Made by a program: the position numbers and the translations under genes. 32,000 nt of DNA from Gemmata obscuriglobus (lineage in GTDB: Bacteria; Planctomycetota; Planctomycetia; Gemmatales; Gemmataceae), in the NCBI RefSeq assembly GCF_008065095.1, contig NZ_CP042911.1:6030001-6062000 (forward strand), given 5' to 3'. The notes beneath the pieces are model-generated. The model saw only the letters and a program-made list of their open reading frames with translations. It made no database searches and was not told the DNA's origin. Below are positions 528 to 25,000 of this stretch, one piece after another. Each line of letters opens with the position of its first letter. Position 1 is the first letter of the stretch.

Positions 528-920
528 TCACCAGTTGGGAAGGGATTGCTGCTCGTTGCCCTTGACCAGCGCCTCCAGTTCACTCATCCGCACCTCCAAC
601 TCGGCCACCTCGCGCACCTTGAGGCCGAGCTCGAGTATGGCCCGCGCGGCCCCGAGCCTCGTGGCCGGCGGTGTCGAACTGCCCTGGAGTGACAGCAGCG
701 TGCGGACGGCCTCGCCGGCGGCCGCGGTGAGCATCCCGGCGCACCGCCGCACCATGTCGCCGCGGAGCTCCGCGAGCCGGCTCTTGAACGCCGGGTCGTT
801 GAGCCGCCGGTACACGGTGCGGTCGGTCAGCTCGCACTGCTTGGCCGCGGCCTCGACGGTGGCCCCGCACGCCAGCGCCAGCAGCAGCTTGTCGTCGTTC
901 TTCTTCACCCGGTCGCCCAT
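528..920 (-). CDS. helix-turn-helix DNA-binding protein with C-terminal coiled coil (phage regulator or terminase-small-subunit-like)
   Basis: These are the last 130 codons of the 528..3587 track ORF. ATG at 918-920 is preceded by GGAGGAG. HTH-like segment ATVEAAAKQCELTDRTVYRRLNDP. C-terminal heptad-like segment VAELEVRMSELEALV. Confidence 0.65.
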   Translation of the reverse strand: MGDRVKKNDDKLLLALACGATVEAAAKQCELTDRTVYRRLNDPAFKSRLAELRGDMVRRCAGMLTAAAGEAVRTLLSLQGSSTPPATRLGAARAILELGLKVREVAELEVRMSELEALVKGNEQQSLPNW

Positions 921-1513: not shown

Positions 1514-3562
1514 TTACGCCGCGGCCCGCTCGGCCTTCTGGCCGGTCAACGACTCGAACCGCTGGACGATGACGTCGCAATACCGCGGGTCCAGCTCGAG
1601 CAGGGCCGCGTTCCGCCCGGTCTGCTCGGCGGCGGCCAGGGCGGTGCCGGAGCCGGCGAACGGGTCGAGGACGAGGCCGCCGGGCGGGCACGAGTTGTTC
1701 AGCAGGTACGCGAACAGTTCGGCCGGCTTGGGTGTCGGGTGGTCCGGGTTCTTGGCGGGCTTGTCGAACTCGAGCACGGTGGTCTGGGACCGGTCGCCGA
1801 GCCAGGTGTGGGCGGCCCCGTCGATCCAACCGTAGAGACAGTTGTGCACGACGATGCCGTCCGCCACGTAATGCTTGTCCCGCTCGACGTCCATCGACCA
1901 CACCTCGAGGTCGTGCACCCGCTCGAAGCTGGTGGCCGTCAGGTCGCGCCACTCGAACCGCTCGCCGGCGGTGGGCACCGGCACCTGCATCACGCCCGGG
2001 ACCAGGTTGCACGCGGCCACCTGACGCGACTGTCGGCACGAGAAGTTGCCCGGCTCGTTCGCCGCCAGCAGGGGGAGGCCGGCGGACAGCCCGTGGTCCC
2101 GCAGGAGCCGATCGACGCCCGCCCGGATGCGGTCCACACCGAGCCGCTGGTAGATCGCGTCGATGCCCGCCTGGTCCCGCTGCGCCCAGCTCGCACCCGG
2201 GTTCCGCCCGGTCTCCCAGACCGTGGTCGGTATCCCGTACCGGCACGACACCACCTGCTCGGCGATCCGCGCCTCGGTCAGCGTGGCGAACGCGCCCAGC
2301 ACCCACGCCGCGTCGCCGCGCTCCTGCGACAGGCGCACCGACACCCCGAACCCGCGGCTGTTGAACATCCCGCACACGCCCACGCGCCAGCGGTCGCCGC
2401 GCCGCATGAGGTACAGCAGCCCGGCCTTCGGGCGCGCCGGGTCGAACCGCACGGTGAACCGGTGCTCGGGGGTGGCGCGGGTGCGGAACTCCCCCACCTC
2501 GACGCGGTGCAGGTTGCCGGTGTGGCGCCGGCTCGTGATGCCCGTGACGGCCCGCCCGCGCCGGTAGATCTTGGCGTTCCCGAAGCTGACCACGCGGTCG
2601 CCGGGCTGCAGCGACTCGATGGGCACCTGTTCGATCACCGAATCCTCGCGCCACCGCCCCTCCTTGATCACCTTCGCCACCTGGGTACCGGCGGGCTGAC
2701 ACGGTTCGTGCTTCCAATGGTAATCTTGTCGCCCCAGTACGAGGGCCGACTTGACCCACACCAGGCACTGCCGCACCTGGAGCCCGGCGGCCGCGCAGGC
2801 GGTGCGGACGTCGAGCCCGGCGGTGTCCGCGTGCCACACGTAGAACGCCCCGCCCGGCTTCAGGTGGGCCTTGGCGGCGGTCAGGGCGGCGGTGAGGAAC
2901 GCGCGGTACTGTTCGGGGCTCATGTCGTCGTTGGCAATCGTCAGGGCGTCCGCGGTCTTGCCCGAATAGGCGACGTTGTACGGCGGGTCGGTGAGGAGGA
3001 GGTCGGCGGGCCCGTCGGGCAGCAGGCGCGCGAGGTCGGCGGGCTTGGTGGCGTCGCCGCACAGGAGTCGGTGCCGGCCCAGGCGCCACAGGTCCCCGGG
3101 CCGGGTGAGCGGCTCGGCCGGCGGCTCGGGCACCTCGTCGGGATCGCCGGCGGGCGGGGGCTCGGGTGCGGTCAGGAGCCGGAGGACCTCGTCCTCGGGG
3201 AACGCGGTGAGCGACAGGTCGAAGTCGGCGGTCTGGAGCGCGGCCAGTTCGAGTGCCAGGCGCTCGTCGTCCCAGGTGGCGAGTGTGGCGGTCTGGTTGT
3301 CGGCCAGTCGGTACGCCCGGGCCTGGTCGGGTGTGAGCCCGCGGGCCACGTGCACCGGCACCTCGATCAGGCCCAGCTTCAGCGCCGCCTTGTACCGGGT
3401 GTGGCCCACGATCAGCACGTCGCCCTCGTCCACCACGAGCGGCTGTCGGAACCCGAACGCCCGGATGGACGCGGCGACCGCATCGACCGCGGCGTCGTTG
3501 GCGCGGGGGTTGTTCTCGTACGGTTTGATCGAACCGATCGGTCGCATCACCACGTCCATCAT
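1514..3562 (-). CDS. ParB-like nuclease domain / N6-N4 DNA methyltransferase fusion, interrupted by an in-frame intein
   Basis: 682-aa ORF. N-terminal ParB/Srx-like motif VLIVGHTRYKAALKLG. Methyltransferase motifs LLLTDPPYN (DPPY) and DPFAGSGT. GAGGTGG lies just upstream of the ATGATG start. The conserved block ...QDYHWKHEP / CLYGW... is split by 287 extra codons. Confidence 0.9.
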   Translation of the reverse strand: MMDVVMRPIGSIKPYENNPRANDAAVDAVAASIRAFGFRQPLVVDEGDVLIVGHTRYKAALKLGLIEVPVHVARGLTPDQARAYRLADNQTATLATWDDERLALELAALQTADFDLSLTAFPEDEVLRLLTAPEPPPAGDPDEVPEPPAEPLTRPGDLWRLGRHRLLCGDATKPADLARLLPDGPADLLLTDPPYNVAYSGKTADALTIANDDMSPEQYRAFLTAALTAAKAHLKPGGAFYVWHADTAGLDVRTACAAAGLQVRQCLVWVKSALVLGRQDYHWKHEPCQPAGTQVAKVIKEGRWREDSVIEQVPIESLQPGDRVVSFGNAKIYRRGRAVTGITSRRHTGNLHRVEVGEFRTRATPEHRFTVRFDPARPKAGLLYLMRRGDRWRVGVCGMFNSRGFGVSVRLSQERGDAAWVLGAFATLTEARIAEQVVSCRYGIPTTVWETGRNPGASWAQRDQAGIDAIYQRLGVDRIRAGVDRLLRDHGLSAGLPLLAANEPGNFSCRQSRQVAACNLVPGVMQVPVPTAGERFEWRDLTATSFERVHDLEVWSMDVERDKHYVADGIVVHNCLYGWIDGAAHTWLGDRSQTTVLEFDKPAKNPDHPTPKPAELFAYLLNNSCPPGGLVLDPFAGSGTALAAAEQTGRNAALLELDPRYCDVIVQRFESLTGQKAERAAA
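1841..2701 (-). other. intein (287 codons) inside the methyltransferase gene
   Basis: It starts with Cys (TGT at 2699-2701) directly after extein HEP. It ends VVHN (AAC at 1841-1843) followed by +1 Cys (1838-1840). Block-B-like TPEHRF and block F/G-like VWSMDVERDKHYVADGIVVHN are present. It is in frame, and the flanks rejoin into the conserved HEP-(C)LYGW methylase motif. Confidence 0.8.
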
Positions 3563-4386: not shown

Positions 4387-7300
4387 TCACCCGCCCCAGG
4401 TGCGGCCGGCGCTCACCTCGACCTCGACCGGCACCGGGTCGATGAGCGGGGCCATCCCGTCCCGCATCGCGTCCCGCACCCAGGCGATGGCTTCGTCCCG
4501 ACGCTCCTCGGAGCACTCGACCACGATCTCGTCGTGCACCAACAGCACGGGGAACGCGTCCGGGCAGGAGTTGCGGCGCGCCCACAGCAGGGCCAGCGCC
4601 CGCTTCAGCCCGTCGGCCCCGGTCCCTTGCACGGGAGTGTTCAACTTCTCGGTGAACGCGCCCACCCCGACCCGCCGGCGCCCCGCCAGGGTGCGCGTTT
4701 GGATGATGCCGTCGGGCACCTTCCGGTGCCACGCACGGAGGCCCGGGTAGGTGCGGAAAAACGCGTCCCGGTGATCCGCCGCCTCGCCCTCGGTCAGCGC
4801 CACCCCGAAGTTCGACGCGGCGTACGCGGCCAGGGCCTTCGCCCCCATGCCGTAAAGAAGCCCGAAATTCAAACTTTTGCTCAACTGACGGTCGGCCTTG
4901 GTGACGTCTGTTTTCCCGAGCACCGCGCGGGCCGTGGTGGTGTGCAGGTCCTCGCCCTTCTGGTACGCGTCGAGCATCCGCTTGTCGCCGGTGATCTTGG
5001 CCGCGATGCGGAGCTCGATCTGGGAGTAGTCGGCCTTCACGAGGACGCGGCCGGGCGGCGTTACGAAGCACCGGCGGAACCGCGGGTCCCGGGGCAGCTG
5101 CTGCAGGTTCGGGTCCTTGCAGCTCATGCGCCCGGAGGCCCCGGCCCCGACCTGCTTCCACGCGGCGTACACGCGGCCGTCATCGGCCACGTGCCGGAGC
5201 CACCCGCGCCCGTACGTGCCCGACAACTTGGACGCGGCCCGGTGCTCGCGCAGCAGAGCCGCGGCCGGGTGGGCCACCGCGGCCAGCGCGTCGTCGCCGG
5301 TCGAGGTCAGGGCCACCCCGGCGGCGGCGAACGCGGCCGTCACCTCGTCGACCGAGTTCCAGTTGGTCACCCCGAACAGGTTGCCCGCGTTGGGCAGCAG
5401 TTCGTCCAGGTGCTCCCGGGCCCGGGCGGCACACGCCTCGGTGTCGGCGGCCACGGCATCCCACGCGGGCCGGTCGAACCCGACCCCGTGCCGCGCGGCC
5501 CACGCGACCGCCGGCAGCGCCGCCATCTCGGCCTCGGCGGTGCCGGTCAGGTGCGCGGCCGCCAGCTCGGGCGCGAGCCGCTCCCACAGCGCGAGGGGTA
5601 ACTCGGCGTCGCGGGCGGCGTACCCCAGGTGCGCGTCGGTGAGCGGCCCCGACCAGTCGGCGGTCTGCAGCCCCTTGTCGAGCTCGAGTCCCAGGTGCCG
5701 GTGGGCCAGGTCCTTCAGTGAGTGGCCGGTGGTGCGGTTCCCGGCGTGCAGCACCTGACTCGCGAGCATGGTGTCCCGCACCCGCCCGGGCACGAACCCG
5801 AGGCGCATCAGGAACGGCAGGTCGAACCCCAGGTTCTGGCCCACCACCTCGACCGCCGTCAGCGCCTCGAGCAGTGGTGCCAGGGCCGCGGCGGGGTCGG
5901 GGAGCGCGAACAGGTCGACGAGGAACGTGCCGCTCGGGGTCGCGAGCGAGAGCAGCCGGACCCGGTCGCGGGCGTGGGACAGGCCCGTGGTTTCGAGGTC
6001 CAGACCGACCAGGGCCGCGGCCCCGGTGACCGCACGTACGACCTCGGCGAGGGCACCCGCCTCGCGCACCCACATCCGACCCCGGTGTGACACAACCCCC
6101 TCGGTGTGACACGACCCGTCGCCGGCGTCGGACCCCGATTCGGGCGCCGGGTCCGAACGCTCGCGGCCGGGTGTGACAGATGACACGACCTTGACCGCGC
6201 CCGCGCCCGGTTCCGGCCCGACGACGGAACTACTTGGTGGCGTGGCGGTTGCGCCGCCAGACCCGCCCGCCGGGGCCGCGGGGCTCCTGTCACACCCGGC
6301 GGTTGTGTCACACCGCGACCCGCCGGCGCCGGCCCCCTCCGCGCCGGCCGGCGCATCGGCCTCGGAGGTTCTGTCATCTGTCACACCGGGCACGAAGGCC
6401 CGCGTCGGGGGGCCGCCGTTGGACCCGCCCGCGACCGGCTCCCAGCGCCCGAACCCGAGCCGCACTAGCCCGTCGAGCGCGGCCTCGGCGGCGGCCGCGG
6501 TGTACCGCTTCTGGTTGGACCGGTGGAGATCCCGGGCCCGCACCGCACCGCCGCACCGGGCGGCAAGCTTGCGCACCGCCTCCAGCAGGTGCCGGGCGCC
6601 CTGCACCTCGGGCGGCTCGGCCAGGGCCAGGTACGCGCGCTCGGCCTCGTCGCGGAACCAGGTGGTCAGCTCGACCGCGGCGCCCATGTCGTCCGCCGCG
6701 ATCGGGTGCTCGTGGGCCCGCGCCTGCAGCCGGCAGCAGTGGAAGATGAGGGCGAACCGCAGGGCGTACCCCTCGAGCTTGCTCATGACCGCGCTCATGT
6801 CCTCGTCGGCGGTCTCCAGGGCCTCGCCGTTGGCGTTGTAGAACGCCACGAACCGGGCCTTGGCGTCGGCGCCCAGGGGGACCAGGTGCGGGGCCGGCTT
6901 GCCGTTGGGCCAGGTGCCGGCGGGGAGCCGGTGCAGGTCGCCCAGGAGCGCGGCGAACGCGCCGCGGGTGGGCTCGTCGATCTCGGCCTCGGTCCACTGG
7001 CGCTTGCGCCACGGGGGCAGCGCCAGAAGCAACCGGGCCAGGAACCCCGAGGCCCGGAACTCCTCGGTGAGGACCCGCGAGAGCACCTTGGGCTGGATGG
7101 TGCCGGTGACGGACACCCCGACCCCGCGGACCCGGACCTCGCGCTTGTCCGGGTCCCCGGTCTTGCGGGTGTAGTTGATGGTGCCGGCGTGGTGCAGCTG
7201 GAGCCACCGGGGCAGGTCGCTGGCCCCGGTCTTGCCGGCGTACTTGACGAAGCTCCCGATCCAGGCGCTCAGCTCGTCCTGGCCGATGACCAGCCCGCGC

Positions 7301-8751
7301 GGGTTCTCCTGGAGCGCGCCGACCAGGGCCTCGATGGTGACGTCGCCCTTGATGAACGCGCGCTTGACCGGTTTGACGGGGCGGGCCCCGGGGTCCGCGC
7401 CGTCTTGCTTGGCGTCCTCCCACTGTTCGAGTTCGACCTCGTACGCGGCCAGCGCCGTTCGGTACTCGGCCTCGAGCCGGTCGTTGATGTCCTCGGCCAG
7501 GTCCTCGACGTCGCGGTACGGCGGGCTCTTGATGGCGCCGGACTTGCCGACGGGCAGGGCCCAGATGTACGGCGGCTCCTTCCACCGCTTCTTGGGGGAC
7601 GCGACGTGGGAGCTGCCGATGGCGGCCCCGAGGGCGGCGAGCGCGGGCAGCGCGCTGTAGGCCCGGTCGCAGTTCATAGCGGCGGCGGTGGCCTCGACGT
7701 AGGCGCGGACCACGGGCGGGAGCAGGTGCGTGGGGAACGGGATGTAGGGCGGGATCTCGGGCGCCGGCGGCCGCGGGGCGGCTCCGGGTTTTCCGCCCGT
7801 TGGTCCGGCCCCCACGGTCGCGCGAGCCGCGGGCGGGTCGGGGACGCCGAGCCACTCCTGGACCCGGGCCACCACGGCGGCGGCGGTGGCGTTGTCGAGG
7901 GACGGGTCGAGCATCTCCTTGAGCGCCGGCAACCCCGTCATCGGCTTGCCGGCCCGGAGCCGCTTGCGGGCGTCGGCCACCGCCCCGGCCCCTTCGCCGG
8001 CGGCGATCTTGGCCACCTTGTCGGGGTCGTTCTTCGCGGCGAACACGGCGGTGACGAACGCCACCGCCCGGGCGTCGTCCTCCCAGCCGGCGCGGGCCAG
8101 CAGGTTGGCGACCAGCAGCACCAGCGCGTGCCGCTCCTGGGGCCGGGCGTACCGGGCCAGCAGCACCGCCGCCCCGACGTGCCGCACCGCGGCGGCAAGT
8201 TCGGCGCCGGCGACCGCCGCAGGCTCGCCCGCGCGGGCCCACTCGAGCCCCTCGCCGCTGGCGTGGAGCGACGGCGGGAACACGGTCTGGAGGTGCTTGA
8301 ACCGCCCCTCGGCCTCGTCCCACTCGGGCCACCGCAGCTCGACGATGGTGGCCCGGTCCCCGGACCGCACCGGGTCGAGTAACTTGGCGAACGCGGCGGT
8401 GCGGTCGGTGACGGCGTACAGCCGGTGGGTGGTCTCGCCGCCGCGCCCGAACGCGCTGTTCGTGGCGGGGAGCAGATGGGGGCCGGCGACCGCGGCCTCG
8501 CCGCAGTCCAGGTCGACGTCGGCCAGGCCGGCGGAGTTGGGGCCCAGCTTGACCCCGACGTTGCGGCCGGCGAAATGTTCGGGGGCGGCGGTGCCGCCGG
8601 GCCAGAACCGGGCGTCCGGGTGCTTGCCCGGCTTGGGACAGTCGGGGCGCCCGCACGAGCAGGCGCCCCGGTCGAGGTCGGGGCGGTGCACCGGGACCGT
8701 GCACCAGCCACGGGCCCGGTACCGCGCGACGGCTTCGGCGACGGTGCTCAT
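4387..8751 (-). CDS. fused replicase: AEP PrimPol + DUF3987-type P-loop ATPase + DnaQ-like 3'-5' exonuclease + family A DNA polymerase
   Basis: ATG at 8749-8751 is preceded by GGAGG and overlaps the upstream stop as ATGA. There is no stop codon down to 4387. PrimPol motifs: CSCGRPDCPKPGKHP, DVDLD, THRLY. ATPase motifs: PVGKSG, VIGQDELS. The low-complexity linker spans ~6076-6429. Exo motifs: DLETTGL, NLGFDLPFL, YAARDAE. PolA motifs A/B/C: DYSQIELRIAA, KSLNFGLLYG, LLVHDEIVVE. Confidence 0.9.
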   Translation of the reverse strand: MSTVAEAVARYRARGWCTVPVHRPDLDRGACSCGRPDCPKPGKHPDARFWPGGTAAPEHFAGRNVGVKLGPNSAGLADVDLDCGEAAVAGPHLLPATNSAFGRGGETTHRLYAVTDRTAAFAKLLDPVRSGDRATIVELRWPEWDEAEGRFKHLQTVFPPSLHASGEGLEWARAGEPAAVAGAELAAAVRHVGAAVLLARYARPQERHALVLLVANLLARAGWEDDARAVAFVTAVFAAKNDPDKVAKIAAGEGAGAVADARKRLRAGKPMTGLPALKEMLDPSLDNATAAAVVARVQEWLGVPDPPAARATVGAGPTGGKPGAAPRPPAPEIPPYIPFPTHLLPPVVRAYVEATAAAMNCDRAYSALPALAALGAAIGSSHVASPKKRWKEPPYIWALPVGKSGAIKSPPYRDVEDLAEDINDRLEAEYRTALAAYEVELEQWEDAKQDGADPGARPVKPVKRAFIKGDVTIEALVGALQENPRGLVIGQDELSAWIGSFVKYAGKTGASDLPRWLQLHHAGTINYTRKTGDPDKREVRVRGVGVSVTGTIQPKVLSRVLTEEFRASGFLARLLLALPPWRKRQWTEAEIDEPTRGAFAALLGDLHRLPAGTWPNGKPAPHLVPLGADAKARFVAFYNANGEALETADEDMSAVMSKLEGYALRFALIFHCCRLQARAHEHPIAADDMGAAVELTTWFRDEAERAYLALAEPPEVQGARHLLEAVRKLAARCGGAVRARDLHRSNQKRYTAAAAEAALDGLVRLGFGRWEPVAGGSNGGPPTRAFVPGVTDDRTSEADAPAGAEGAGAGGSRCDTTAGCDRSPAAPAGGSGGATATPPSSSVVGPEPGAGAVKVVSSVTPGRERSDPAPESGSDAGDGSCHTEGVVSHRGRMWVREAGALAEVVRAVTGAAALVGLDLETTGLSHARDRVRLLSLATPSGTFLVDLFALPDPAAALAPLLEALTAVEVVGQNLGFDLPFLMRLGFVPGRVRDTMLASQVLHAGNRTTGHSLKDLAHRHLGLELDKGLQTADWSGPLTDAHLGYAARDAELPLALWERLAPELAAAHLTGTAEAEMAALPAVAWAARHGVGFDRPAWDAVAADTEACAARAREHLDELLPNAGNLFGVTNWNSVDEVTAAFAAAGVALTSTGDDALAAVAHPAAALLREHRAASKLSGTYGRGWLRHVADDGRVYAAWKQVGAGASGRMSCKDPNLQQLPRDPRFRRCFVTPPGRVLVKADYSQIELRIAAKITGDKRMLDAYQKGEDLHTTTARAVLGKTDVTKADRQLSKSLNFGLLYGMGAKALAAYAASNFGVALTEGEAADHRDAFFRTYPGLRAWHRKVPDGIIQTRTLAGRRRVGVGAFTEKLNTPVQGTGADGLKRALALLWARRNSCPDAFPVLLVHDEIVVECSEERRDEAIAWVRDAMRDGMAPLIDPVPVEVEVSAGRTWGG
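6084..6387. repeat. array of six GGTGTGACA[C/G] sites, three forward then three inverted, inside the replicase linker
   Basis: Forward copies lie at 6084-6093, 6103-6112 and 6170-6179, plus half-site TGACAC at 6181-6186. Inverted copies lie at 6287-6296, 6305-6314 and 6378-6387, plus half-site TGTCAT at 6372-6377. 6083-6096 is the perfect reverse complement of 6302-6315 (14/14). 6170-6185 is the perfect reverse complement of 6372-6387 (16/16). Confidence 0.7.
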
Positions 8752-8942
8752 CGGTCGCCTCCGCTCGGGCCGAGCAGGTGCACCAGGTCGCTCGCGGCCC
8801 AGCACCGGGCGCCGTCGAGGGCCCGACACTCGGTGGCGTGTGGGGCCAGTCGCGGGAGCTCGTTGGGATCGATCTCCAGGGCCCACAGGTCATCTTCGCT
8901 CAGGTAGTCGTCGGGCACGAGAACCTCCTTCTCGGCGCGCAC
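8748..8942 (-). CDS. hypothetical acidic protein (64 aa)
   Basis: The ORF has normal composition (MRAEKEVLVPDDYLSEDDLWALEIDPNELPRL...). Its TGA overlaps the replicase ATG (ATGA at 8748-8751), implying translational coupling. Confidence 0.5.
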   Translation of the reverse strand: MRAEKEVLVPDDYLSEDDLWALEIDPNELPRLAPHATECRALDGARCWAASDLVHLLGPSGGDR

Positions 8943-10460: not shown

Positions 10461-10504
10461 GTAACCTGTTACAACGCCCGTAACATCGTTACGCCGGGCG
10501 TAAC
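10461..10504. promoter_or_regulatory. five GTAAC/GTTAC half-sites (operator-like) upstream of the 103-aa gene
   Basis: GTAAC-CT-GTTAC lies at 10461-10472, CGTAAC-ATC-GTTACG at 10479-10493 and GTAAC at 10500-10504. Units are spaced about 19-20 bp apart. They sit in an AT-richer spacer between two minus-strand genes. Confidence 0.4.
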
Positions 10505-10517
10505 AAATCGCGCGGGG

Positions 10518-10546
10518 CCGTTGGCGCGCGGCCCCCGCGCCAACGG
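10518..10546 (-). terminator. 11-bp-stem hairpin just after the stop of the 388-aa gene
   Basis: CCGTTGGCGCG (10518-10528) pairs with CGCGCCAACGG (10536-10546) around a 7-nt loop. It starts 8 nt downstream (minus sense) of the stop at 10554. Only a weak T-tract (ATTTGTT) follows. Confidence 0.4.
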
Positions 10547-10553
10547 GCGGGTG

Positions 10554-11720
10554 TCACACCTCCCACTCCACGTCCGGGACCGGCGCGTACCGGAGCTCCG
10601 CACCGGTCTCGATGGACGCGTGCAGGTGGCGGGCGAGCTCGGGGAGCGGCCGCTCGAGCGCCCCGATGACGTGGTCGATGGCGTTCTTGACGGACGTGCG
10701 GAGGCTGGTCGATTCGTCGCCCAGCCGCCGCCCCCGCCGGCCGGGGCCCCGGTGCGCGTGGGCGCGCCCGACGATCGCGTGGAACTGGTCCTGCAGGCGC
10801 TCGACCCGCGCCCAGTCGTGGTCGCCTCGCGCCCGGGCGATTTCGTCGGCCAGCTCGCGCGACACGCGCTCGTCGTCCGCCGCCGTGTCGCCGCGGTACG
10901 GCGCCGGGCTCGCGCGGCCGCGCACCACGTCCCGCAGCTCCGCCGCGCGGATGTGCCGCCGCTTGGCCTGGATCAGCCGCGCGACGTACCACAGCCCGAT
11001 CCGGTCGCCGAGCAGCGCCGTCTTCCCGGCGAACGTCACCGACCACGCCCCGCCGCCGTGCCAGAGCGCGTTCCGCGGTTGCCAGTCGCCCGCCCGCGGG
11101 CGCGCCACCTGGGCGGCCCAGGCGAGCGCCGCCTCGAGCGGCGAGACGGGGCGCAAGCGGCCCGGGCCGGCCGCCGCAACGGCGGCCGCGAGCGGGACCG
11201 CCCCGCGCCCGTCCCGTCGGAGGGCCGGATCGGCGGCCACCACCCGGCTCGTGCACAGCAGGAGCGGCGGGCCGTCGCCCCCGGTGCCCAGGTGGGGGGC
11301 GAGCGCGCGCGCCGCGGCCACCGTCCCGGTGAGCACCAGGAAGCACGTGTACCGGGCTCCGGCCGCGCCGGTGAGCGGTCCGACGTGGGCGGCCCGCGGG
11401 GCCGGGTCGCGGGCCGGCTCGCGGCGCAGCCCGAGGGCGTCGGCCACCGCCCCCGCCAGCGCCGGCGCGTCGACCTCGTGCTCCCGCTCGTCCGGATCCG
11501 CGCGGCTCGCGCCCGACGGCGCGAGCCGCAGGAACGGGCGGACGAGGTCGAACTCGGGTCCGAGCCGGCGCCCCCAATCGGTCAGGGCGGTGGCGAGCTC
11601 CGGGAGCGCGTCGGCCGCGTCCCAGAACCGGGTCAGGGCGGTCGGCTCCGGGGCGCCCGGGGGCCACGGTCCGGGGTGGTCCGACTCGTTCGGGGCTGTG
11701 GCGGTGTTGCGGGTGACCAT
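10554..11720 (-). CDS. hypothetical protein (388 aa), possible regulator
   Basis: The ORF has balanced composition. The segment WSVTFAGKTALLGDRIGLWYVARLIQAKRRHIRAAEL resembles the 'W.v.f.G....l.d.kGl.Yla.Ll' motif seen at the N-termini of many actinobacterial and planctomycetal regulators (recalled from memory, unnamed). No clear SD. Confidence 0.6.
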   Translation of the reverse strand: MVTRNTATAPNESDHPGPWPPGAPEPTALTRFWDAADALPELATALTDWGRRLGPEFDLVRPFLRLAPSGASRADPDEREHEVDAPALAGAVADALGLRREPARDPAPRAAHVGPLTGAAGARYTCFLVLTGTVAAARALAPHLGTGGDGPPLLLCTSRVVAADPALRRDGRGAVPLAAAVAAAGPGRLRPVSPLEAALAWAAQVARPRAGDWQPRNALWHGGGAWSVTFAGKTALLGDRIGLWYVARLIQAKRRHIRAAELRDVVRGRASPAPYRGDTAADDERVSRELADEIARARGDHDWARVERLQDQFHAIVGRAHAHRGPGRRGRRLGDESTSLRTSVKNAIDHVIGALERPLPELARHLHASIETGAELRYAPVPDVEWEV

Positions 11721-19473: not shown

Positions 19474-21049
19474 GTAAGCGTTCACGGGTGATGCGGCAGT
19501 GTATCAACAGTTGGCGAGTAGCGGATTCACAACGTTCTGTTGTTGAGCTTCAGCTGGAACGAGCGTCGGTGCCTTCGCGCCGGTCCGGTGTGCGGTGACG
19601 GCGTCGATGAGGAACGCCAAGACGTTGCGCTTCTGGCGGCGGCACGAGGCGATCACCGTGAGGATTCGTTCCACGAACCGGCTCCCGCGTTCGCTGTCGG
19701 TCCCGAAGCTGGTTTTGCGCCAGCACACGGCGTGACGCACCTCACGCTCGGCCGCGTTGTTGGTCGGTTCCACGCCGACGACACGCGCGAACGTCCACAA
19801 CGACGCCTCGACCGACAACAGTTCCGCGCAGGTCGTGGCGGTCTTGGCGCAGCCGCACGCCGCCCCGTTCCGCAGGTGCGTGCCGACCTGACGACGCAAC
19901 GCGGGGATGTAGGTCGAGCGACATGTGGACCGCGCGAGGGTTCCGTCCCGCACCCGATACCAGTTCTCGAACAGGGCGTCCGAACACGCCAACAGAGCCG
20001 CGCCGATCGCCTGTCCGGAACCGCCCCGGTCGATCATCGCCTGGAAATCGCGTCGCAGGTGCGCCCAGCAGAGTTGACGCTTGTACTTGTCGAGGTGCGT
20101 GTACACCGGATACCGGTCCGTCGTATGCACGGCCGTGGACCCGGCACGCAGGTCATCAAAGGCGGCCCGGCCCCGGGTCCGGCGGATCAGGAACGCCACC
20201 ACGAACGTGGTCACGGCGGCCCACAGCCAGGCCCGCTGACGCCCCTGCTTCCAACCGGTCTCGTCCACGTTGGCCGGGTGCCCGCGGGTGTACACCAGGG
20301 CCTGTTCGGCCACCGGCTTCAGCGCCTCGGCGGTTCGGTGCTGGAGCTTGCACACCATGGCCGGGCTCAGGGGCAGGCCGAACAGATCGTCGAACAGTTG
20401 GCTCGTGCCCCGCTTGCCCAGACGGCACGAGCCGGTGAGAAGCGCGGCCACCGCCTGCGCCCGGGGGCCGTATCCGGTGCGCGCCTCCGACGGCACCGCG
20501 GGCACCGTGGTCGTGCCGCAGTGGGGGCACCGGAGCCGGTGGCACCGATACTCGGTCACGTGGGGTTTGATAACGGGCAACTCGTGGACCTGATGAATGG
20601 CCGGAGCCGGATCGTCCCCGGCCAGCGACCGCGAGCAGTCCCGGCACACGGACGGCTTGAGGGTCCGGATCTCATCGGGTGGCAGGAGCGTGCGCTCGGC
20701 TTTGGGATGCCCCGGTTGCCCGCCCCGACGCTTCCCCGAAGGGGCCTTGGGCGGGGCCAGTTTCACCTGCGGAGGATCGGACGAGGGCGGCTTCGACGAG
20801 TTGGTGGAGCTCTGGTTGAGTCGGGCCTTGAGTTCGGCGACCTCGGCCACCAGAGCAGTGATCGTGGCCTCCAAGGCGCGAATATACGCCACCACCGCCG
20901 GTGGTAAGTTATCGGGCAGTTCCGGCGGTTGAGGAACAGGCGTCATGACGTCTGCTCGATTACGGAACATGCCCGCTTGTGGCAACCGCGTATCCAAACG
21001 GGCTAAAATGACGGGCAAAAGCGGGTGGCGCACCCCCATGAACGCTTAC
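19474..21049 (-). mobile_element. IS66-family insertion sequence (single-ORF type), apparently intact
   Basis: The terminal inverted repeat GTAAGCGTTCA lies at 19474-19484, with its reverse complement at 21039-21049 (11/11). The 8-bp target duplication AAAAGTGG lies at 19466-19473 and 21050-21057. The element is 1576 bp. Confidence 0.9.
19504..20946 (-). CDS. IS66-family transposase
   Basis: 480 aa from the ATG at 20944-20946. It has an N-terminal zipper (LPPAVVAYIRALEATITALVAEVAELKARL), the NSSKPPSSD motif and a CPHCG zinc finger, then a DDE-type core. The track ORF start at 21039 lies inside the terminal repeat. Confidence 0.9.
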   Translation of the reverse strand: MTPVPQPPELPDNLPPAVVAYIRALEATITALVAEVAELKARLNQSSTNSSKPPSSDPPQVKLAPPKAPSGKRRGGQPGHPKAERTLLPPDEIRTLKPSVCRDCSRSLAGDDPAPAIHQVHELPVIKPHVTEYRCHRLRCPHCGTTTVPAVPSEARTGYGPRAQAVAALLTGSCRLGKRGTSQLFDDLFGLPLSPAMVCKLQHRTAEALKPVAEQALVYTRGHPANVDETGWKQGRQRAWLWAAVTTFVVAFLIRRTRGRAAFDDLRAGSTAVHTTDRYPVYTHLDKYKRQLCWAHLRRDFQAMIDRGGSGQAIGAALLACSDALFENWYRVRDGTLARSTCRSTYIPALRRQVGTHLRNGAACGCAKTATTCAELLSVEASLWTFARVVGVEPTNNAAEREVRHAVCWRKTSFGTDSERGSRFVERILTVIASCRRQKRNVLAFLIDAVTAHRTGAKAPTLVPAEAQQQNVVNPLLANC

Positions 21050-21754
21050 AAAAGTGGACTGACGAGTCGCAAGATCGAGTACGGGGTGATCCCACCGAAG
21101 GCCGATGGGGAGTTCGTGGCCCACATGGAGGTGGTCCTGGACACGTACACCACGCCCTACGATTGCCGGTACCCGGTGCTGAACAGGGACGAGCAGCCAA
21201 TCCCGTTGCTGAAGGAGACGCGGGTCCCGATCCCGGCCACGACGAATCACCCGCGGCGGGTCGATTACGAGTACGAGCGGGCCGGGACGGCGAGCATCTT
21301 CATGTTCGGTGAGCCCCTGGCCGGGTGGCGCCAGGGGCGGGGCCGGGAGCACCGGGCCAAGGTCGACTGGGCGGTGGAGATGGGGGCGCTGTTGCGGGGC
21401 CGGTACGCGGCCGCCGAGAAGGTGATCCGGGTGTGCGACAACCGGAACACGCACACCATCGGGGCGTTCTACGAGGCATTCGATCCGGTCACGGCCCGGG
21501 CCCTGGTGCGTCGGCTCGAGTTCCGCCACACGCCCAAGCACGGCAGCGGGCTCAACATCGCCGAGAACGAGCTGAGCGCGAGGACCCGGCAATGCGTGCA
21601 CGGCCGCCGGTTCGCGACGATCGAGGCGTTGCGCGCGGAGACGGTCGCGTGGCACGAGTACGTCAACGACAAGCCGCGCGGCGTCGAGTGGCAATTTCGC
21701 ACCGACGACGCGAGAACCAAACTGAACTCGCTCTACCCTAAAATTAAAACCTGA
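21050..21754 (+). pseudogene. IS630-family transposase, C-terminal DDE part (separated from its N-terminus by IS66)
   Basis: It reads KSGLTSRKIEYGVIPPKADGEFVAHMEVVLDTY...VCDNRNTHT...FRHTPKHGSGLNIAENELS...FRTDDARTKLNSLYP. It is in the same frame as the 19034 ATG but offset from the middle segment (the A7 run at 19463-19469). Confidence 0.8.
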
Positions 21755-22062: not shown

Positions 22063-25000
22063 TCAGCGGGTGATGTAGAACGACGCCTTCACGTTCCCGA
22101 CTAGCGCACCAGTCAGCGTCGGGCCGACGTTGTCCGACGCATTGAACGTGAAAACCAAGTCCTGGAACAGGTTCGGCGACGCGAGCAGGTCGGTTCCCCG
22201 GAACACCGGCCGGATTAGGGTTCCGCTGTAGGTGGCCCGAACACCGTCCATCCCACCCAGGTAAACATCGATGTCGGTGGACTGGTTCCCGTTGTTCTCG
22301 CCGAAGTCCGACTCCGCCAGCGCGCCTTCGATCGCGAAAATGTCGTCCTTGGTCATGCTGAATGTAACCGACCGAAGGCTCTGGGGGATGTAGCTGGCGA
22401 ACCGGAACGCGTTCGGTCCCGCCGCGAACCCGATCCCGAAGGCGCCGCCGTTGAAAAATCCGCCCGGACCCGGGTCGGGGAGCAGTCTCTCGGTGAAACT
22501 GAACTCGTTGGTGAGGTCGGAGCGCAGCGGGGCCGTGATCCGAACGCCCGCTCGGATGGCCGACGTGAAGTCGTCGCTCAGCCCGCTCGGCTTCAACCTG
22601 TCCGGTCGCCGGACGCCCAGGTCGAAGCCGACCTCGCCGTTCCCGGTCGTGTCCCCGTCCTCGGTCAGGGTCAGCTCGTTGTAGACGACCGTGACCAGGA
22701 AGTCCTCGACCAGCGGGTTCGACCCCAGGCTGAACTCGACGCCGTCGTCACGGGCGTCGTCGTCGGTGTTCCCGTCGTTCGGGTCGGAGCGGAACGCGCC
22801 GCCGTTGAAGTTGAACTCCTGGCCGTCCACTACCCCGTCGAAGTCGGCATCGGCCTCGATCGGGCTGCTGTACACCCGGTACGGCGTGCGACCGACGGGC
22901 CGCACCACCCAGCGGTTCGCCTCGACGTCCGTCAGCTCGGCCTCGGCCCCGTCGGAGCGCAAGTCGTTGTCGGTGTCGGCGTCGAGCGGGTTGGTCTTGA
23001 TGATCCCGAGGTTCCGGCCGCCGACCTCGTGGCCCAGCGTGTAGCCCTGATACTCGACCCGGTCGGGGATGCCGTCCCCGTCCGTGTCGTTCGACAGCGG
23101 GTCGGTCTTGAGGAAGAACTCCTCGTAGTCGGTCAGCCCGTCGCCGTCGCTGTCCACCGCGTCGGTCCGGGACGTGCGGGTCACCGTCGTCGATGCCCCG
23201 TTCTGGAGGGGCGTCGTGCTGACCCCGTCCGTGGTCACCCGCCACCCGGCGCGCTCGACCGGGTCCGGCAGGCCGTCGCCGTCGTTGTCGGTGTCGTTGC
23301 TGTCTCTGGGGTCCAGCCCGACCCGTCGCTCGAACCCGTCGGAGAACGGGTCGGCGTCGGTGAACGGGGTGGTGGGGTTGGTCTGGACGTTTCTGAGCGT
23401 CGTACCGTCGATCAGGCGGGTGACGGTGAACCCGATGATCTCCGTCGCGTCGTCGATGCCGTCGCCGTCGGTGTCCTTCAGGATCGGGTCGAGGGCGTAG
23501 TCGGCGGCGTTCAGTTTGAACACCTCCCCTTCGTCCCGCAGGCCGTTGTTGTTGGCGTCGTTCCAACCGCCCGGGGCGGCGTCGGCGTCGGACCCGGTGT
23601 ACTCCAGCCGGTCCACGACGCCGTCGCCGTCGGAGTCCACGCCGGGCACGGGCGCGTCGAAGTTCGAGTCGGCCCGGTTGGGCGACGAGTACACCTGGTA
23701 GGTGCGCTGGGGCGTGGTCACCTGCCAGCCGATCAGCGCCTCGAAGCGGTCGTCCAGGCCGTCGCCGTCGGTGTCCTTCTTCAGATCCGAGGTGCGCAGG
23801 AGGTACTCCACGTCCGCCGGCAGCCCGTCGTCGTCGACGTCCTGCACGTAGTTCAGGCTCACCCCGTTCCGGCTGGTCAGGACCGTGCGCTCCAGGTCGG
23901 CGTCCCGCACGATGCCCTTCGGGCCGATTAACTGCCAGTAGCGGCCAGTGGCGGCGTCGTTGGCGATCCCGCGGACGCGGACGATCCGCTCCAGCCCGTT
24001 CACCACCTGGGTCGAGTAGCTGTTCCGCACCTGCTCCGGCGTCAGGTTGGCGGTCGGGGTGGCGGCCTCGTCGTACCGGGTCAGGCCGATGGACGACATC
24101 GCCTGGTGGAAGGTGATGCCCACCAGGTTGCCCTTGGTGTCGAACGTGACGCGGCGGTCGGGCACGAACGTGGCGTCGGCGGCGGTCACCCGCCCGTCGC
24201 CGGTGGCGTCGATGCCCAGCGCGTTGCCCCGGGCGTCGAACAGCTCCCGCGGGGTGAAATCGACCTTGCCGTCGCCGTTGGTGTCGGCGACCGCCCGCCC
24301 GGTGGCGGTGGCGACGCGGTACGACTCCACCTGCGGGACGCGGGCCGCGTCGAACGGCTCGCCGTTGATCTGGGCGAGCAGCTGGTTGGCCCCGCCGAAG
24401 TCGATCAGCACGGCGGCCGTCCGCTCGACCACGTCCTGCGAGACGAAGGCGAAGTTGCGGCCCGGCTCGCCGCCCCGCCCCTCGGTCACCACGTCGTAGT
24501 TCGACAGCCGGAAGATGAGGCCGGTGGAGTTCGCCATCAGGCTCTCGACCAGGCTCGGGATGACGGTCGTGTTCTTGAAGATGATCGGGCCGCGGTTGGG
24601 CACCAGCGGCCCCAGGGCGAAGCCGGAGGACGGCTCGAACTCCGGCACCAGGGTGGCGACCGGGGTCAGCCGCGTGTGGTCCTGCGGGTCGAGGATGAGC
24701 GCCGTGACCTGCAAGTTCTTGATGCTGAAAGCCAGGTCGCTGAGGTTGCGGAGGCTGACGGCCGCCTGCATACTGGCCCCGACGACGGTGCGCTCGGCAA
24801 CGAACCCGTTCGTCACCTCCCGCTCGGTCTGCAGCGACTTCTCGTACTCCTTGCGGTTCTCCTCGGCCGACTCCTTTGTGTTGTTGTAGGTGTAGCCGGC
24901 GGTGAGGCCGATCTCGGTCTCGACGCCCTCGCCGCCGATCGTGAAATTGAGGCCGGCCTCGACGTTGGCCGTGTGTTGCACGGTTGCGGTGTTGGTGGTG

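What the first reader, a model, noticed from the sequence alone, without database searches (positions are those of the whole stretch)
6076..6429. Array of six GGTGTGACA[C/G] sites embedded in the replicase linker: candidate origin or internal operator
Within ~300 bp the 10-mer occurs three times forward (6084, 6103, 6170) and three times inverted (6287, 6305, 6378). There are two extra half-sites and two long perfect inverted matches (14/14 and 16/16 nt). The array sits exactly in the low-complexity stretch between the ATPase and exonuclease-polymerase halves. In that stretch A/T-ending codons become frequent by eye (ACA, GAT, TGT, TCT, AGT, CCA, GAA). This suggests the DNA is constrained by something other than coding. 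The last forward copy ends 9 nt upstream (minus sense) of an in-frame ATG (6073-6075, MWVREAG...), which could start a stand-alone exo-polymerase. A perfect 11-bp palindromic version, GGTGTCACACC, also occurs at 10550-10560, overlapping the stop of the 388-aa gene. Iteron-like arrays inside or beside rep genes are typical of plasmid and phage origins. Alternatively this is a fossil intergenic operator/promoter from before the two genes fused.
Basis: seen in the sequence. Interest (0 to 1): 0.75.

Follow-up and report, generated by a model that had tools for sequence, protein, structure and literature searches.

The report
Replication-origin repeats inside a replicase gene
Six copies of a 9-base DNA word sit inside the flexible linker of a giant primase-helicase-polymerase gene on a mobile element of Gemmata obscuriglobus. 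Relatives keep such arrays at the same spot with different words, so this is most likely the element's replication origin written through a protein-coding sequence.

Summary
GGTGTGACA occurs 7 times in the 32-kb window, against 0.24 expected. Six copies lie in 304 bp, three on each strand.

The copies fall in all three reading frames, inside the disordered linker of a 1454-aa Prim-Pol / DUF3987 (MCM-like) helicase / winged-helix / 3'-5' exo / PolA protein. The first site starts at the codon after the last winged-helix strand.

Comparative evidence shows a selected DNA element:
- In a Gemmata sp. IIL30 copy, 54/54 site bases are identical, against 62% of the bases between sites, with no indels.
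- 27 of 60 related loci carry a locus-specific 8-mer 4 to 11 times at the helicase|PolA junction, against 6% of other intervals.
- This holds whether the two halves are fused or separate. In one unfused relative (L091) the array stays with the helicase 3' end.
- The motif changes in concert across all copies, and neighbouring sites are mostly 9-10 or 18-21 bp apart.

Best reading (about 0.6): an iteron-type origin bound by the replicase's own helicase/winged-helix part. It sits where staphylococcal pathogenicity island (SaPI) and SCCmec origins sit, but is translated like lambda's ori in gene O. Binding and initiation are untested. The internal ATG is not conserved.

The parts
6379..6387 (-). 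Site 1 in the sense direction of the gene: GGTGTGACA, extended GGTGTGACAGATGACAGAACC. It encodes G-V-T (P0001 residues 789-791), the codons right after the last predicted winged-helix strand.
6306..6314 (-). Site 2: GGTGTGACACAACC, read in a different frame (peptide RCDT).
6288..6296 (-). Site 3: GGTGTGACAGGAGCC (peptide GCDR), 18 bp from site 2.
6179..6287 (.). The 109-bp spacer between the two opposed triplets of sites. It is GC-rich with no AT-rich tract, and it is poorly conserved against L001. It is the candidate melting or assembly zone (inferred).
6170..6178 (+). Site 4, in the opposite orientation: GGTGTGACAGATGACACGACC. It forms a 16/16 inverted match with site 1 (peptide SVTP).
6103..6111 (+). 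Site 5: GGTGTGACACGACC (peptide CHT).
6084..6092 (+). Site 6: GGTGTGACACAACC (peptide VSHR), 19 bp from site 5.
6181..6185 (+). Extra TGACA half-site attached to site 4. Its mirror partner TGTCA lies at 6372-6376, attached to site 1.
6388..6612 (-). Predicted winged-helix domain (P0001 residues about 714-788: three helices plus a beta-hairpin wing, block pLDDT 73-92). It follows the helicase core and is the candidate site-recognition domain (inferred).
   Evidence: PMC4889955, PMC5862659
6631..7671 (-). DUF3987 ATPase/helicase domain. The predicted fold is closest to MCM.
   Evidence: PMC11724360
8218..8724 (-). Prim-Pol (archaeo-eukaryotic primase-polymerase) domain.
5563..6069 (-). PolA-type 3'-5' exonuclease domain. 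It begins just after the array.
4393..5307 (-). Family A DNA polymerase domain.
4387..8751 (-). Whole replicase gene (1454 aa from ATG 8751). It is 100% identical to a Gemmata obscuriglobus protein annotated 'DNA polymerase I'.
10550..10560. Solitary palindromic copy GGTGTCACACC over the stop codon of the 388-aa gene. Whether it belongs to the system is unresolved. No GTGTGAC-core copy lies at the equivalent distance (about 1.7 kb upstream of the replicase start) in L001; the gene there was not identified.

Best explanation
The six GGTGTGACA sites are most likely the iterons of the replication origin of a roughly 15.7-kb integrative mobile element of Gemmata obscuriglobus. The origin is written into the coding sequence of the disordered linker of the element's own all-in-one replicase (Prim-Pol, MCM-like DUF3987 helicase, winged helix, linker, 3'-5' exo, PolA).

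Proposed mechanism:
1. After excision by the serine recombinase, the helicase/winged-helix part of the replicase binds the sites.
2. The two opposed triplets (three sites pointing one way, then 109 bp, then three pointing the other way) position two oppositely oriented helicase assemblies.
3. The DNA between or around them is melted.
4. The Prim-Pol domain primes, and the tethered PolA extends.

Shown here: the sites exist, they are non-random, and they are selected at the DNA level. Their position directly 3' of the helicase/winged-helix coding region is conserved across diverged relatives, fused or unfused. The motif evolves in concert across all copies, and spacing follows the helical repeat.

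Inferred only: which protein binds the sites, that unwinding and initiation happen here, and that the element replicates at all.
For: 1. Non-random cluster. There are 7 copies against 0.24 expected, and 6 lie within 304 bp.

2. Not a peptide repeat. The sites occupy all three codon phases and both strands, and they depress GC3 to 0.56 against 0.955 elsewhere in the ORF.

3. Purifying selection on the DNA. Against the Gemmata sp. IIL30 copy (L001), 54/54 site columns are identical versus 62% of 250 inter-site columns. There are no indels across the array.

4. Family-wide feature.
- In 27 of 60 related loci, the 700 nt before the exo domain carry a locus-specific 8-mer at least 4 times, and up to 11 times. 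Only 27 of 432 other intervals do.
- The motif is almost always exclusive to that interval.

5. Independence from the gene fusion.
- Unfused relatives keep the array at the helicase-end/PolA-start junction: L033, L016, L062, L060, L088, and L092 and L093.
- L093 uses the same GTGTGACA word 6 times.
- In L091 two ORFs separate the genes, and the array stays with the helicase 3' end.

6. Concerted motif change at conserved positions. The window's protein has PGVTDDRT / RCDTT / SSVTP / SCHTEGVVSHRG. P0002, P0004 and P0009 have PCMTHDTT / LHDTT / VSCVSCV / LCHAEGVVSCTG, which in the one locus with DNA (L009 = P0009) is written by GCATGACA instead of GTGTGACA.

7. Spacing. Neighbouring same-orientation copies are 9-10 bp apart in 27 of 51 cases and 18-21 bp apart in 8. 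In the window they are 18-19 bp apart.

8. Domain-wise mosaicism. The helicase and winged-helix parts diverge independently of the Prim-Pol and PolA parts.

9. Predicted fold. The helicase segment has an MCM-like core plus a C-terminal winged helix. Site 1 starts at the next codon.

10. Precedent.
- SaPI Rep and SCCmec Cch2 helicases recognise iterons lying directly downstream of their coding sequence through a C-terminal domain; SaPI Rep appears to bind its origin as two hexamers, and the same is proposed for Cch2 (PMC7581432).
- DUF3987 proteins are helicases with a C-terminal winged helix (PMC4889955, PMC11724360).
- Lambda's origin lies in the middle of gene O (PMC7466680).

11. Context. 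The element carries a serine recombinase with DUF2924, a ParB-methylase and HTH proteins.
Against: - No protein-DNA binding, initiation mapping or copy-number data exist.
- There is no AT-rich unwinding element. The most AT-rich 20-mers are the sites themselves, at 9 of 20.
- The local minimum of cumulative GC skew near 6-7 kb is weak and tied with another one.
- The winged helix has not been shown to be the binder. Only 1 of 42 variable winged-helix positions tracks motif type, against 11 of 118 in the helicase core.
- About half of the related loci show no array at the junction. Some carry arrays elsewhere.
- The L001 copy keeps perfect sites although its replicase gene is decayed. Conservation there may simply reflect recent divergence.
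- Centromere and packaging sites can have a similar repeat architecture.
Confidence: 0.6

Rival explanations
1. The array is a transcriptional operator or roadblock, or an internal promoter region. A regulator binds the sites to control expression of the PolA half or of the whole operon.
For: - The array lies just upstream of the exo-PolA domain. In unfused relatives it lies at the start of the PolA gene.
- An in-frame ATG follows the last site in the window.
- The element encodes several HTH proteins.
Against: - No promoter-like hexamers were found, although planctomycete promoters may differ.
- The ATG is present in only 1 of 17 fused homologs.
- In L091 the array stays at the helicase 3' end, about 900 bp and two ORFs upstream of PolA.
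- Six to eleven copies over 200-300 bp, in two opposed blocks, is unusual for an operator.
- A separate operator-like GTAAC/GTTAC cluster already sits at the head of the operon.
Confidence: 0.12
2. The array is a partition (centromere-like) site or a packaging (pac) site. It would be bound by the ParB_N-methylase or by the small-terminase-like HTH protein of the element.
For: - Plasmid centromeres and some pac sites are two clusters of short repeats (own knowledge).
- The element encodes a ParB_N-methylase (1514-3562) and an HTH_23 protein that matches a small-terminase PHROG at E 7.5e-7.
Against: - The array tracks the helicase|PolA junction across very different contigs, including unfused ones. 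It does not track the ParB or TerS-like genes, which lie 2.5-5.5 kb away here.
- ParB_N-methylase fusions are not known partition proteins (own knowledge).
- No capsid or large-terminase genes are present in the element.
Confidence: 0.1
3. The inverted copies act as a single-strand DNA or RNA structure: a cruciform, a hairpin priming site, or an mRNA element that affects translation through the linker.
For: - The sense strand folds with z = -4.9 against shuffles. Sites pair 1-6, 2-5 and 3-4.
- Concerted change of both arms also preserves complementarity.
Against: - A hairpin does not require all six copies to be identical to one another.
- The spacings are not mirror-symmetric: 73/18 against 67/19.
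- Several relatives have unequal numbers of copies on the two strands, or copies in one orientation only (L060, L043, L075, L030).
- No Rfam family matches.
- The negative z-score follows automatically from having inverted repeats.
Confidence: 0.06
4. The array is a chance or neutral repeat, a peptide repeat, or the remnant of an inserted small mobile element, with no present function.
For: - The high-GC linker is low in complexity.
- The G. algarum homolog has a 660-nt expansion of the linker.
Against: - 0 of 100 shuffles reach the observed count.
- The copies lie in three frames and on both strands.
- Site conservation is 54/54 against 62% in the spacers.
- Arrays recur in 27 of 60 loci with different motifs.
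Confidence: 0.03

Closest known systems
Origins of staphylococcal pathogenicity islands (SaPI ori with Rep helicase) and the putative SCCmec origin (Cch2)
   Same: - In those systems a self-loading mobile-element helicase with a C-terminal DNA-binding domain recognises short iterons lying directly downstream of the helicase coding region. SaPI Rep appears to bind its origin as two hexamers, and this is proposed for Cch2 (PMC7581432).
- Here the array starts at the codon after the predicted C-terminal winged helix of an MCM-like helicase, and it has two opposed blocks of sites.
   Different: - The helicase family is DUF3987, not DUF927 or Primase_Cterm.
- The array is not intergenic. It is translated as a linker to a fused exo-PolA.
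- There is no AT-rich core.
- Binding has not been tested.
Lambdoid phage ori inside gene O
   Same: - Iterons lie in the middle of the initiator's own gene, so added or changed iterons change the protein sequence (PMC7466680).
- In lambdoid phages the iterons and the DNA-binding part of O form a type-specific module (own knowledge). That parallels the concerted motif change and the helicase/winged-helix mosaicism seen here.
   Different: - There is no homology to O.
- Lambda has four iterons in one block plus an AT-rich region, and it recruits the host DnaB through P.
- Here the initiator is itself the helicase, primase and polymerase. The sites form two inverted blocks, and no AT-rich tract is present.
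[quoted passage not shown]
   Same: - The protein architecture (primase/helicase fused N-terminally to exo-PolA) is already described, including fused and split variants and an occurrence in Planctomycetota (PMC7689252, PMC10201439).
   Different: - In the passages I searched, neither PMC7689252 nor PMC10201439 mentions DNA repeats in the inter-domain linker.
- For Pyrovirus the origin was inferred from GC skew at a separate intergenic region (PMC7689252).
- PfPrex is matured by proteolysis. Whether this linker is cleaved is unknown.
SV40 large T antigen and papillomavirus E1 origins
   Same: - Oppositely oriented short sites direct head-to-head assembly of two hexameric initiator helicases (own knowledge; the functional analogy is drawn in PMC7581432).
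   Different: - Those are SF3 helicases with an N-terminal origin-binding domain.
- Their origins are compact, about 60 bp, and non-coding.

Membership tests
Iteron-type replication origin (plasmid, phage or island) | Clustered multiple copies of one short sequence, beyond what chance gives | tested here: met
   Six exact 9-mers lie in 304 bp, and 0 of 100 shuffles reach the window total.
Iteron-type replication origin (plasmid, phage or island) | Located in or next to the gene of the replication initiator | tested here: met
   The array lies inside the Prim-Pol/DUF3987/PolA gene, directly 3' of the helicase/winged-helix coding part. The same position is seen in 27 of 60 relatives.
Iteron-type replication origin (plasmid, phage or island) | Sites spaced in phase with the DNA helix | tested here: met
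   Adjacent same-orientation copies are 9-10 bp apart in 27 of 51 cases and 18-21 bp apart in 8. In the window they are 18 and 19 bp apart.
Iteron-type replication origin (plasmid, phage or island) | Sequence specificity that co-evolves with the element (type-specific iterons) | tested here: met
   Different motifs occur in different loci at the same position, and all copies change in concert.
Iteron-type replication origin (plasmid, phage or island) | Adjacent AT-rich DNA-unwinding element | tested here: not met
   No 20-nt window exceeds 9 A/T, and those that reach 9 lie in or next to the sites (one is at 6220). The central spacer has long stretches above 85% GC.
Iteron-type replication origin (plasmid, phage or island) | Specific binding by the initiator, and a requirement in cis for replication | not testable with these tools
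   This needs EMSA or footprinting and mini-replicon or marker-frequency assays.
SaPI/SCCmec-type self-loading helicase origin | Helicase with a C-terminal dsDNA-binding domain | tested here: inconclusive
   The AF2 model shows a C-terminal winged helix after an MCM-like core. The literature reports a winged helix in DUF3987 proteins (PMC4889955). DNA binding was not tested.
SaPI/SCCmec-type self-loading helicase origin | Iterons directly downstream of the helicase coding region | tested here: met
   Site 1 begins at the codon after the last winged-helix strand. In L091 the array stays with the helicase rather than with PolA.
SaPI/SCCmec-type self-loading helicase origin | Helicase of the DUF927 or Primase_Cterm/D5 family | tested here: not met
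   Pfam reports DUF3987 only. The system therefore works like these origins but is not a member of the family.
Lambda-type origin inside the initiator gene | Iterons embedded in the coding sequence of an inter-domain segment of the initiator | tested here: met
   The ORF is continuous through the array in 17 homologs down to 38% identity. The linker is predicted to be disordered.
Lambda-type origin inside the initiator gene | Initiator homologous to the lambda O protein | tested here: not met
   Pfam finds Prim-Pol, DUF3987, DNA_pol_A_exo1 and DNA_pol_A only.
Operator or internal promoter | Promoter elements and a conserved downstream start codon | tested here: not met
   No sigma-70-like sites were found; this is a weak test for Planctomycetes. 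The Met at 6073-6075 is present in 1 of 17 homologs.
Protein-level tandem repeat | Repeats in one frame that encode a repeated peptide | tested here: not met
   The encoded peptides are GVT, RCDT, GCDR, SVTP, CHT and VSHR, in three phases and on both strands.

The most novel reading that the evidence does not exclude
The origin is deliberately kept inside the translated linker so that replication and expression of the replicase are physically coupled. When the helicase/winged-helix part binds the six sites within its own gene, it would block transcription into the PolA half. That would set the ratio of helicase-primase to polymerase product, or shut the gene off once enough replicase is made. 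The location would also favour cis-loading of newly made protein onto the DNA copy that encoded it. The same junction would serve as the recombination seam along which the Prim-Pol, helicase-plus-origin and PolA modules are shuffled between elements.
Probability: 0.15. Interest if true: 0.75.

Novelty: new variant of a known kind. Interest (0 to 1): 0.55.

Why it matters
- It would give the first candidate origin for a widespread but unstudied class of self-replicating elements. These elements carry primase, helicase and polymerase in one polypeptide, and this protein family includes relatives of the apicoplast and hot-spring PolA polymerases.
- It provides a simple sequence rule for finding such origins in metagenomes: look for the repeat array immediately 3' of the helicase/winged-helix coding region.
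- It offers a defined fragment and protein for building a replicon in Planctomycetes, which would add to the genetic tools for this phylum.
- It is a clear natural case of dual coding. A cis-acting DNA array and a protein linker share the same bases, and the motif turns over in concert, with visible effects on the peptide.

Tried and rejected
- Megablast of the replicase gene against the plasmid and phage collections found no match.
- The viral-contig scan found no relatives.
- A sequence search of the PDB with the helicase/winged-helix segment gave nothing significant.
- The Rfam scan of 5500-7000 gave only a chance microRNA hit.
- The promoter/terminator scan found nothing.
- GC skew shows a shallow local minimum near 6-7 kb, tied with one near 2-3 kb. 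This is not decisive.
- I looked for specificity-determining residues in the winged helix. Only one position (Q747) tracked motif type and most such positions lay in the helicase core, so the binder cannot be assigned to the winged helix.
- DNA for the close homologs P0002, P0004 and P0005 could not be fetched because the sample files were too large. I used only their linker peptides.
- The terminal-overlap test for circular contigs was negative, including for L028.
- The idea that the two halves are accidentally read through (about 6% likely by chance in 75% GC DNA, own estimate) was rejected. The ORF stays open in 17 homologs, including loci of 56-67% GC.
Full report
**1.

GGTGTGACA occurs seven times in the 32-kb window, against 0.24 expected. 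None of 100 dinucleotide-preserving shuffles reaches seven.
- Six copies lie between 6084 and 6387.
- Three are on the + strand (6084, 6103, 6170) and three on the - strand (6288, 6306, 6379).
- The two half-sites, the 14/14 and 16/16 perfect inverted matches, the in-frame ATG at 6073-6075 and the palindromic copy at 10550-10560 are all present.
- Relaxing the pattern adds nothing elsewhere.

**2. The gene that holds the array**

ORF 4387..8886(-) carries four Pfam domains: Prim-Pol, DUF3987, DNA_pol_A_exo1 and DNA_pol_A. From ATG 8751 it is 100% identical to a 1454-aa Gemmata obscuriglobus protein annotated as DNA polymerase I.

An AlphaFold model of residues 345-800 (mean pLDDT 84) shows an ATPase core followed by a three-helix, two-strand winged helix. 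The best structural matches of the ATPase core are MCM helicases, and the SCCmec Cch helicase also appears.

This agrees with the literature:
- DUF3987 proteins are MCM-related helicases with a C-terminal winged helix (PMC4889955).
- One member is a 5'-3' helicase (PMC11724360).
- The winged helix in such primase-helicases has been proposed to recognise origins (PMC5862659).

The last wing strand (TRAFVP) ends at residue 788. Site 1 (GGT GTG ACA, encoding G-V-T) is the next three codons.

**3. The constraint acts on DNA, not on protein**

- The six copies are read as GVT, RCDT, GCDR, SVTP, CHT and VSHR. They use all three codon phases and both strands.
- GC3 is 0.955 in the rest of the ORF, 0.56 in codons that touch a site, and 0.88 in the remaining linker codons.

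**4. Close relatives**

A scan of one genome per species found copies in Gemmata sp. IIL30 (L001 and L003, both decayed) and in G. algarum (L002).

- L001 has the same six sites with the same spacings: 73/18 and 67/19.
- The WIN/L001 linker DNA aligns without a single indel. All 54 site columns are identical, against 62% of the 250 columns between them.
- L002 and L003 carry arrays of a related word, GTGTGACG, often extended to GTGTGACGTGTGATGAAAC. In L002 the array is duplicated within a 660-nt linker expansion.

**5. The wider family**

A metagenome scan returned 80 loci.

- In the 700 nt before exo-domain residue 915, 27 of 60 loci have a non-simple 8-mer present at least 4 times, and 14 have one at least 6 times. 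Only 27 of 432 other non-overlapping 700-nt intervals reach 4.
- The words differ from locus to locus. Examples are GCATGACA, CGTCAGCA, CGTCCGCA, GAGGTTCC, GTGGGAAC, CAGCGTCA, TAGCGTCA and AACTCCGC.
- Each word is nearly exclusive to that interval and usually forms blocks of opposite orientation.
- Neighbouring same-orientation copies are mostly 9-10 bp apart (27 of 51) or 18-21 bp apart (8 of 51).
- The N-terminal halves of these replicases vary: DUF3987, DUF3631, or a DnaG-type zinc ribbon.
- Some loci that lack a junction array have one nearby instead. L011 and L012 carry GCGTGACA 8 times about 1 kb upstream of the gene. L076 and L078 carry an array downstream of PolA.

**6. Fused versus separate genes**

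The ORF stays open through the array in 17 homologs down to 38% identity, including loci of 56-67% GC. The fusion is therefore real and the array is translated.

The array does not depend on the fusion:
- In L033, L016, L062, L060 and L088 it spans the helicase stop and the PolA start.
- In L093, helicase and PolA are overlapping separate genes, and GTGTGACA occurs 6 times across the overlap.
- In L092 an 11-copy CGTCACAC array precedes the junction.
- In L091 (Gemmata sp. G18) two small ORFs separate the genes, and the array (GGACAAAA, 4 copies) stays in the helicase 3' end, about 900 bp from PolA.

This ties the array to the helicase/winged-helix part rather than to PolA expression.

**7. 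Concerted evolution and mosaicism**

Linker peptides of the fused homologs show site footprints at conserved positions, with all copies changing together.
- P0001: PGVTDDRT ... RCDTT ... SSVTP ... SCHTEGVVSHRG.
- P0002, P0004, P0009: PCMTHDTT ... LHDTT ... VSCVSCV ... LCHAEGVVSCTG. In the one locus with DNA (L009 = P0009) this reflects GCATGACA in place of GTGTGACA.
- P0005, P0014, P0015: PCVTCDETDET ... VSSVSSHVTHG.

Domain-wise identity to P0001 is mosaic.
- P0003: Prim-Pol 80, helicase 43, exo 84, pol 87.
- P0009: Prim-Pol 38, helicase 79, exo 58, pol 67.

The helicase, winged helix and array therefore behave as a unit that is exchanged separately from the Prim-Pol and PolA parts.

Residues that track motif type lie mainly in the helicase core (11 of 118 variable positions). 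One lies in the winged helix (Q747) and three are the site-encoded linker residues (789, 790, 794). None lies in Prim-Pol, exo or pol. This is suggestive only, because it is confounded by phylogeny.

**8. The element**

In the G. obscuriglobus assembly the module sits in a block of about 15.7 kb. In order, the block holds:
- DUF2924 and a large serine recombinase;
- small ORFs, including an HTH/sigma-like protein;
- the replicase;
- a HARE-HTH protein on the opposite strand;
- a ParB_N-N6 methylase;
- an HTH_23 protein with a weak small-terminase PHROG match;
- further small ORFs.

WD40/caspase genes flank it on one side and a BREX cluster on the other. No capsid genes are present. It looks like an integrative, self-replicating element (plasmid-like or satellite-like), not a complete prophage. 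Synteny of the replicase, HARE-HTH and ParB-methylase genes recurs in the contigs of P0002 and P0005.

**9. Interpretation**

The best fit is an iteron-type origin.
- Its position matches SaPI and SCCmec, where a self-loading helicase recognises iterons directly downstream of its coding sequence through a C-terminal domain. SaPI Rep appears to bind its origin as two hexamers, and the same is proposed for Cch2 (PMC7581432).
- Its being translated matches lambda, where ori lies in the middle of gene O and extra iterons add residues to the protein (PMC7466680).
- The two opposed triplets separated by 109 bp suggest head-to-head loading of two helicase assemblies. The Prim-Pol domain would then prime and the tethered PolA would extend.

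Every step after 'the sites are selected DNA elements next to the helicase' is inferred. The missing AT-rich tract is the main anatomical misfit.

**10. Rival explanations**

- Operator or internal promoter. This is weakened by L091, by the non-conserved ATG, by the absence of promoter-like sites, and by a separate operator-like GTAAC/GTTAC cluster at the operon head.
- Centromere or pac site. This is possible in principle, but the array follows the helicase rather than the ParB or TerS-like genes.
- Single-strand structure. The fold has z = -4.9. That follows automatically from inverted repeats, and it explains neither the identity among the direct copies nor the one-orientation arrays in relatives.
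- Chance or a peptide repeat. Both are excluded.

**11. Novelty**

The protein fusion is already noted in the literature. [quoted passage not shown]

In five full-text searches and the papers read, I found no description of repeat arrays in the linker or of an origin at this junction.

The principle (iterons beside or inside the initiator gene) is known. What appears new is its family-wide embedding as the translated linker of a primase-helicase-polymerase, with concerted motif turnover. I rate it a new variant of a known kind, with interest 0.55.

Noticed in passing
window 10461-10504 and 10517-10548: Five GTAAC/GTTAC words lie within 44 bp, out of 26 in the whole 32-kb window. They sit in the intergenic region upstream of the operon that leads into the replicase. 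Next to them is a GC-rich hairpin (GCCGTTGGCGCGC...GCGCGCCAACGGGC) just after the stop codon of the 388-aa gene. This is probably an operator/promoter and a terminator.
   Followed up: partly
A1 alignment (P0001-P0021), all domains: The replicase is strongly mosaic. Identity to P0001 jumps between domains, for example P0003 at 80/43/57/84/87% and P0009 at 38/79/57/58/67% for Prim-Pol/helicase/winged helix/exo/pol. This implies repeated recombination at the domain borders.
   Followed up: partly
L002 8500-9520 (Gemmata algarum): The linker is expanded by about 660 nt and holds at least 12 GTGTGAC-core sites. These include long composite repeats (TTTCGTATGTTTCGYCACACGTCACAC), as if the array had been duplicated in tandem while the ORF stayed open (1731 aa).
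   Followed up: partly
L001 and L003 (Gemmata sp. IIL30 scaffold HG799466.1, about 37 kb apart): Two decayed copies of the replicase gene lie on one scaffold, with internal deletions and frame changes. L001 still has six perfect sites.
   Followed up: partly
L011 1640-2097 and L012 1363-2186: In distant fused relatives (33% identity) the linker has no array. An array of 8 or more copies of GCGTGACA, in two opposed blocks, lies about 1 kb upstream of the replicase gene. The word resembles the window's GTGTGACA.
   Followed up: partly
L089 19684-24365 (left of the window in the G. obscuriglobus genome): A BREX-type defence cluster (PglZ, BrxD-like ATPase, Lhr-like helicase) directly abuts the element on the side of the small ORFs. 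It is unclear whether it is cargo of the element or host DNA.
   Followed up: no
window 528-920 (-): A small HTH_23 protein matches a small-terminase PHROG (phrog_2538, E 7.5e-7), although the element has no capsid or large-terminase genes. This could indicate a satellite-like lifestyle.
   Followed up: no
P0015 (1876 aa homolog): This fused homolog carries a Pfam PF14528 (LAGLIDADG-type) domain, probably an intein or homing-endonuclease insertion in the replicase.
   Followed up: no
L028 56-397 and 8131-8634: Prim-Pol-like matches lie at both ends of this 8.6-kb metagenomic contig, with overlapping residue ranges. No identical terminal overlap was found, so circularity is unproven.
   Followed up: partly
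window 19504-21754 and 22063-27495: Outside the element there is an IS66-family transposase and a DDE_3 transposase. There is also an 1810-aa protein with TSP3 and DUF4214 repeats, whose coding repeats give the only other high 8-mer multiplicities in the window.
   Followed up: no
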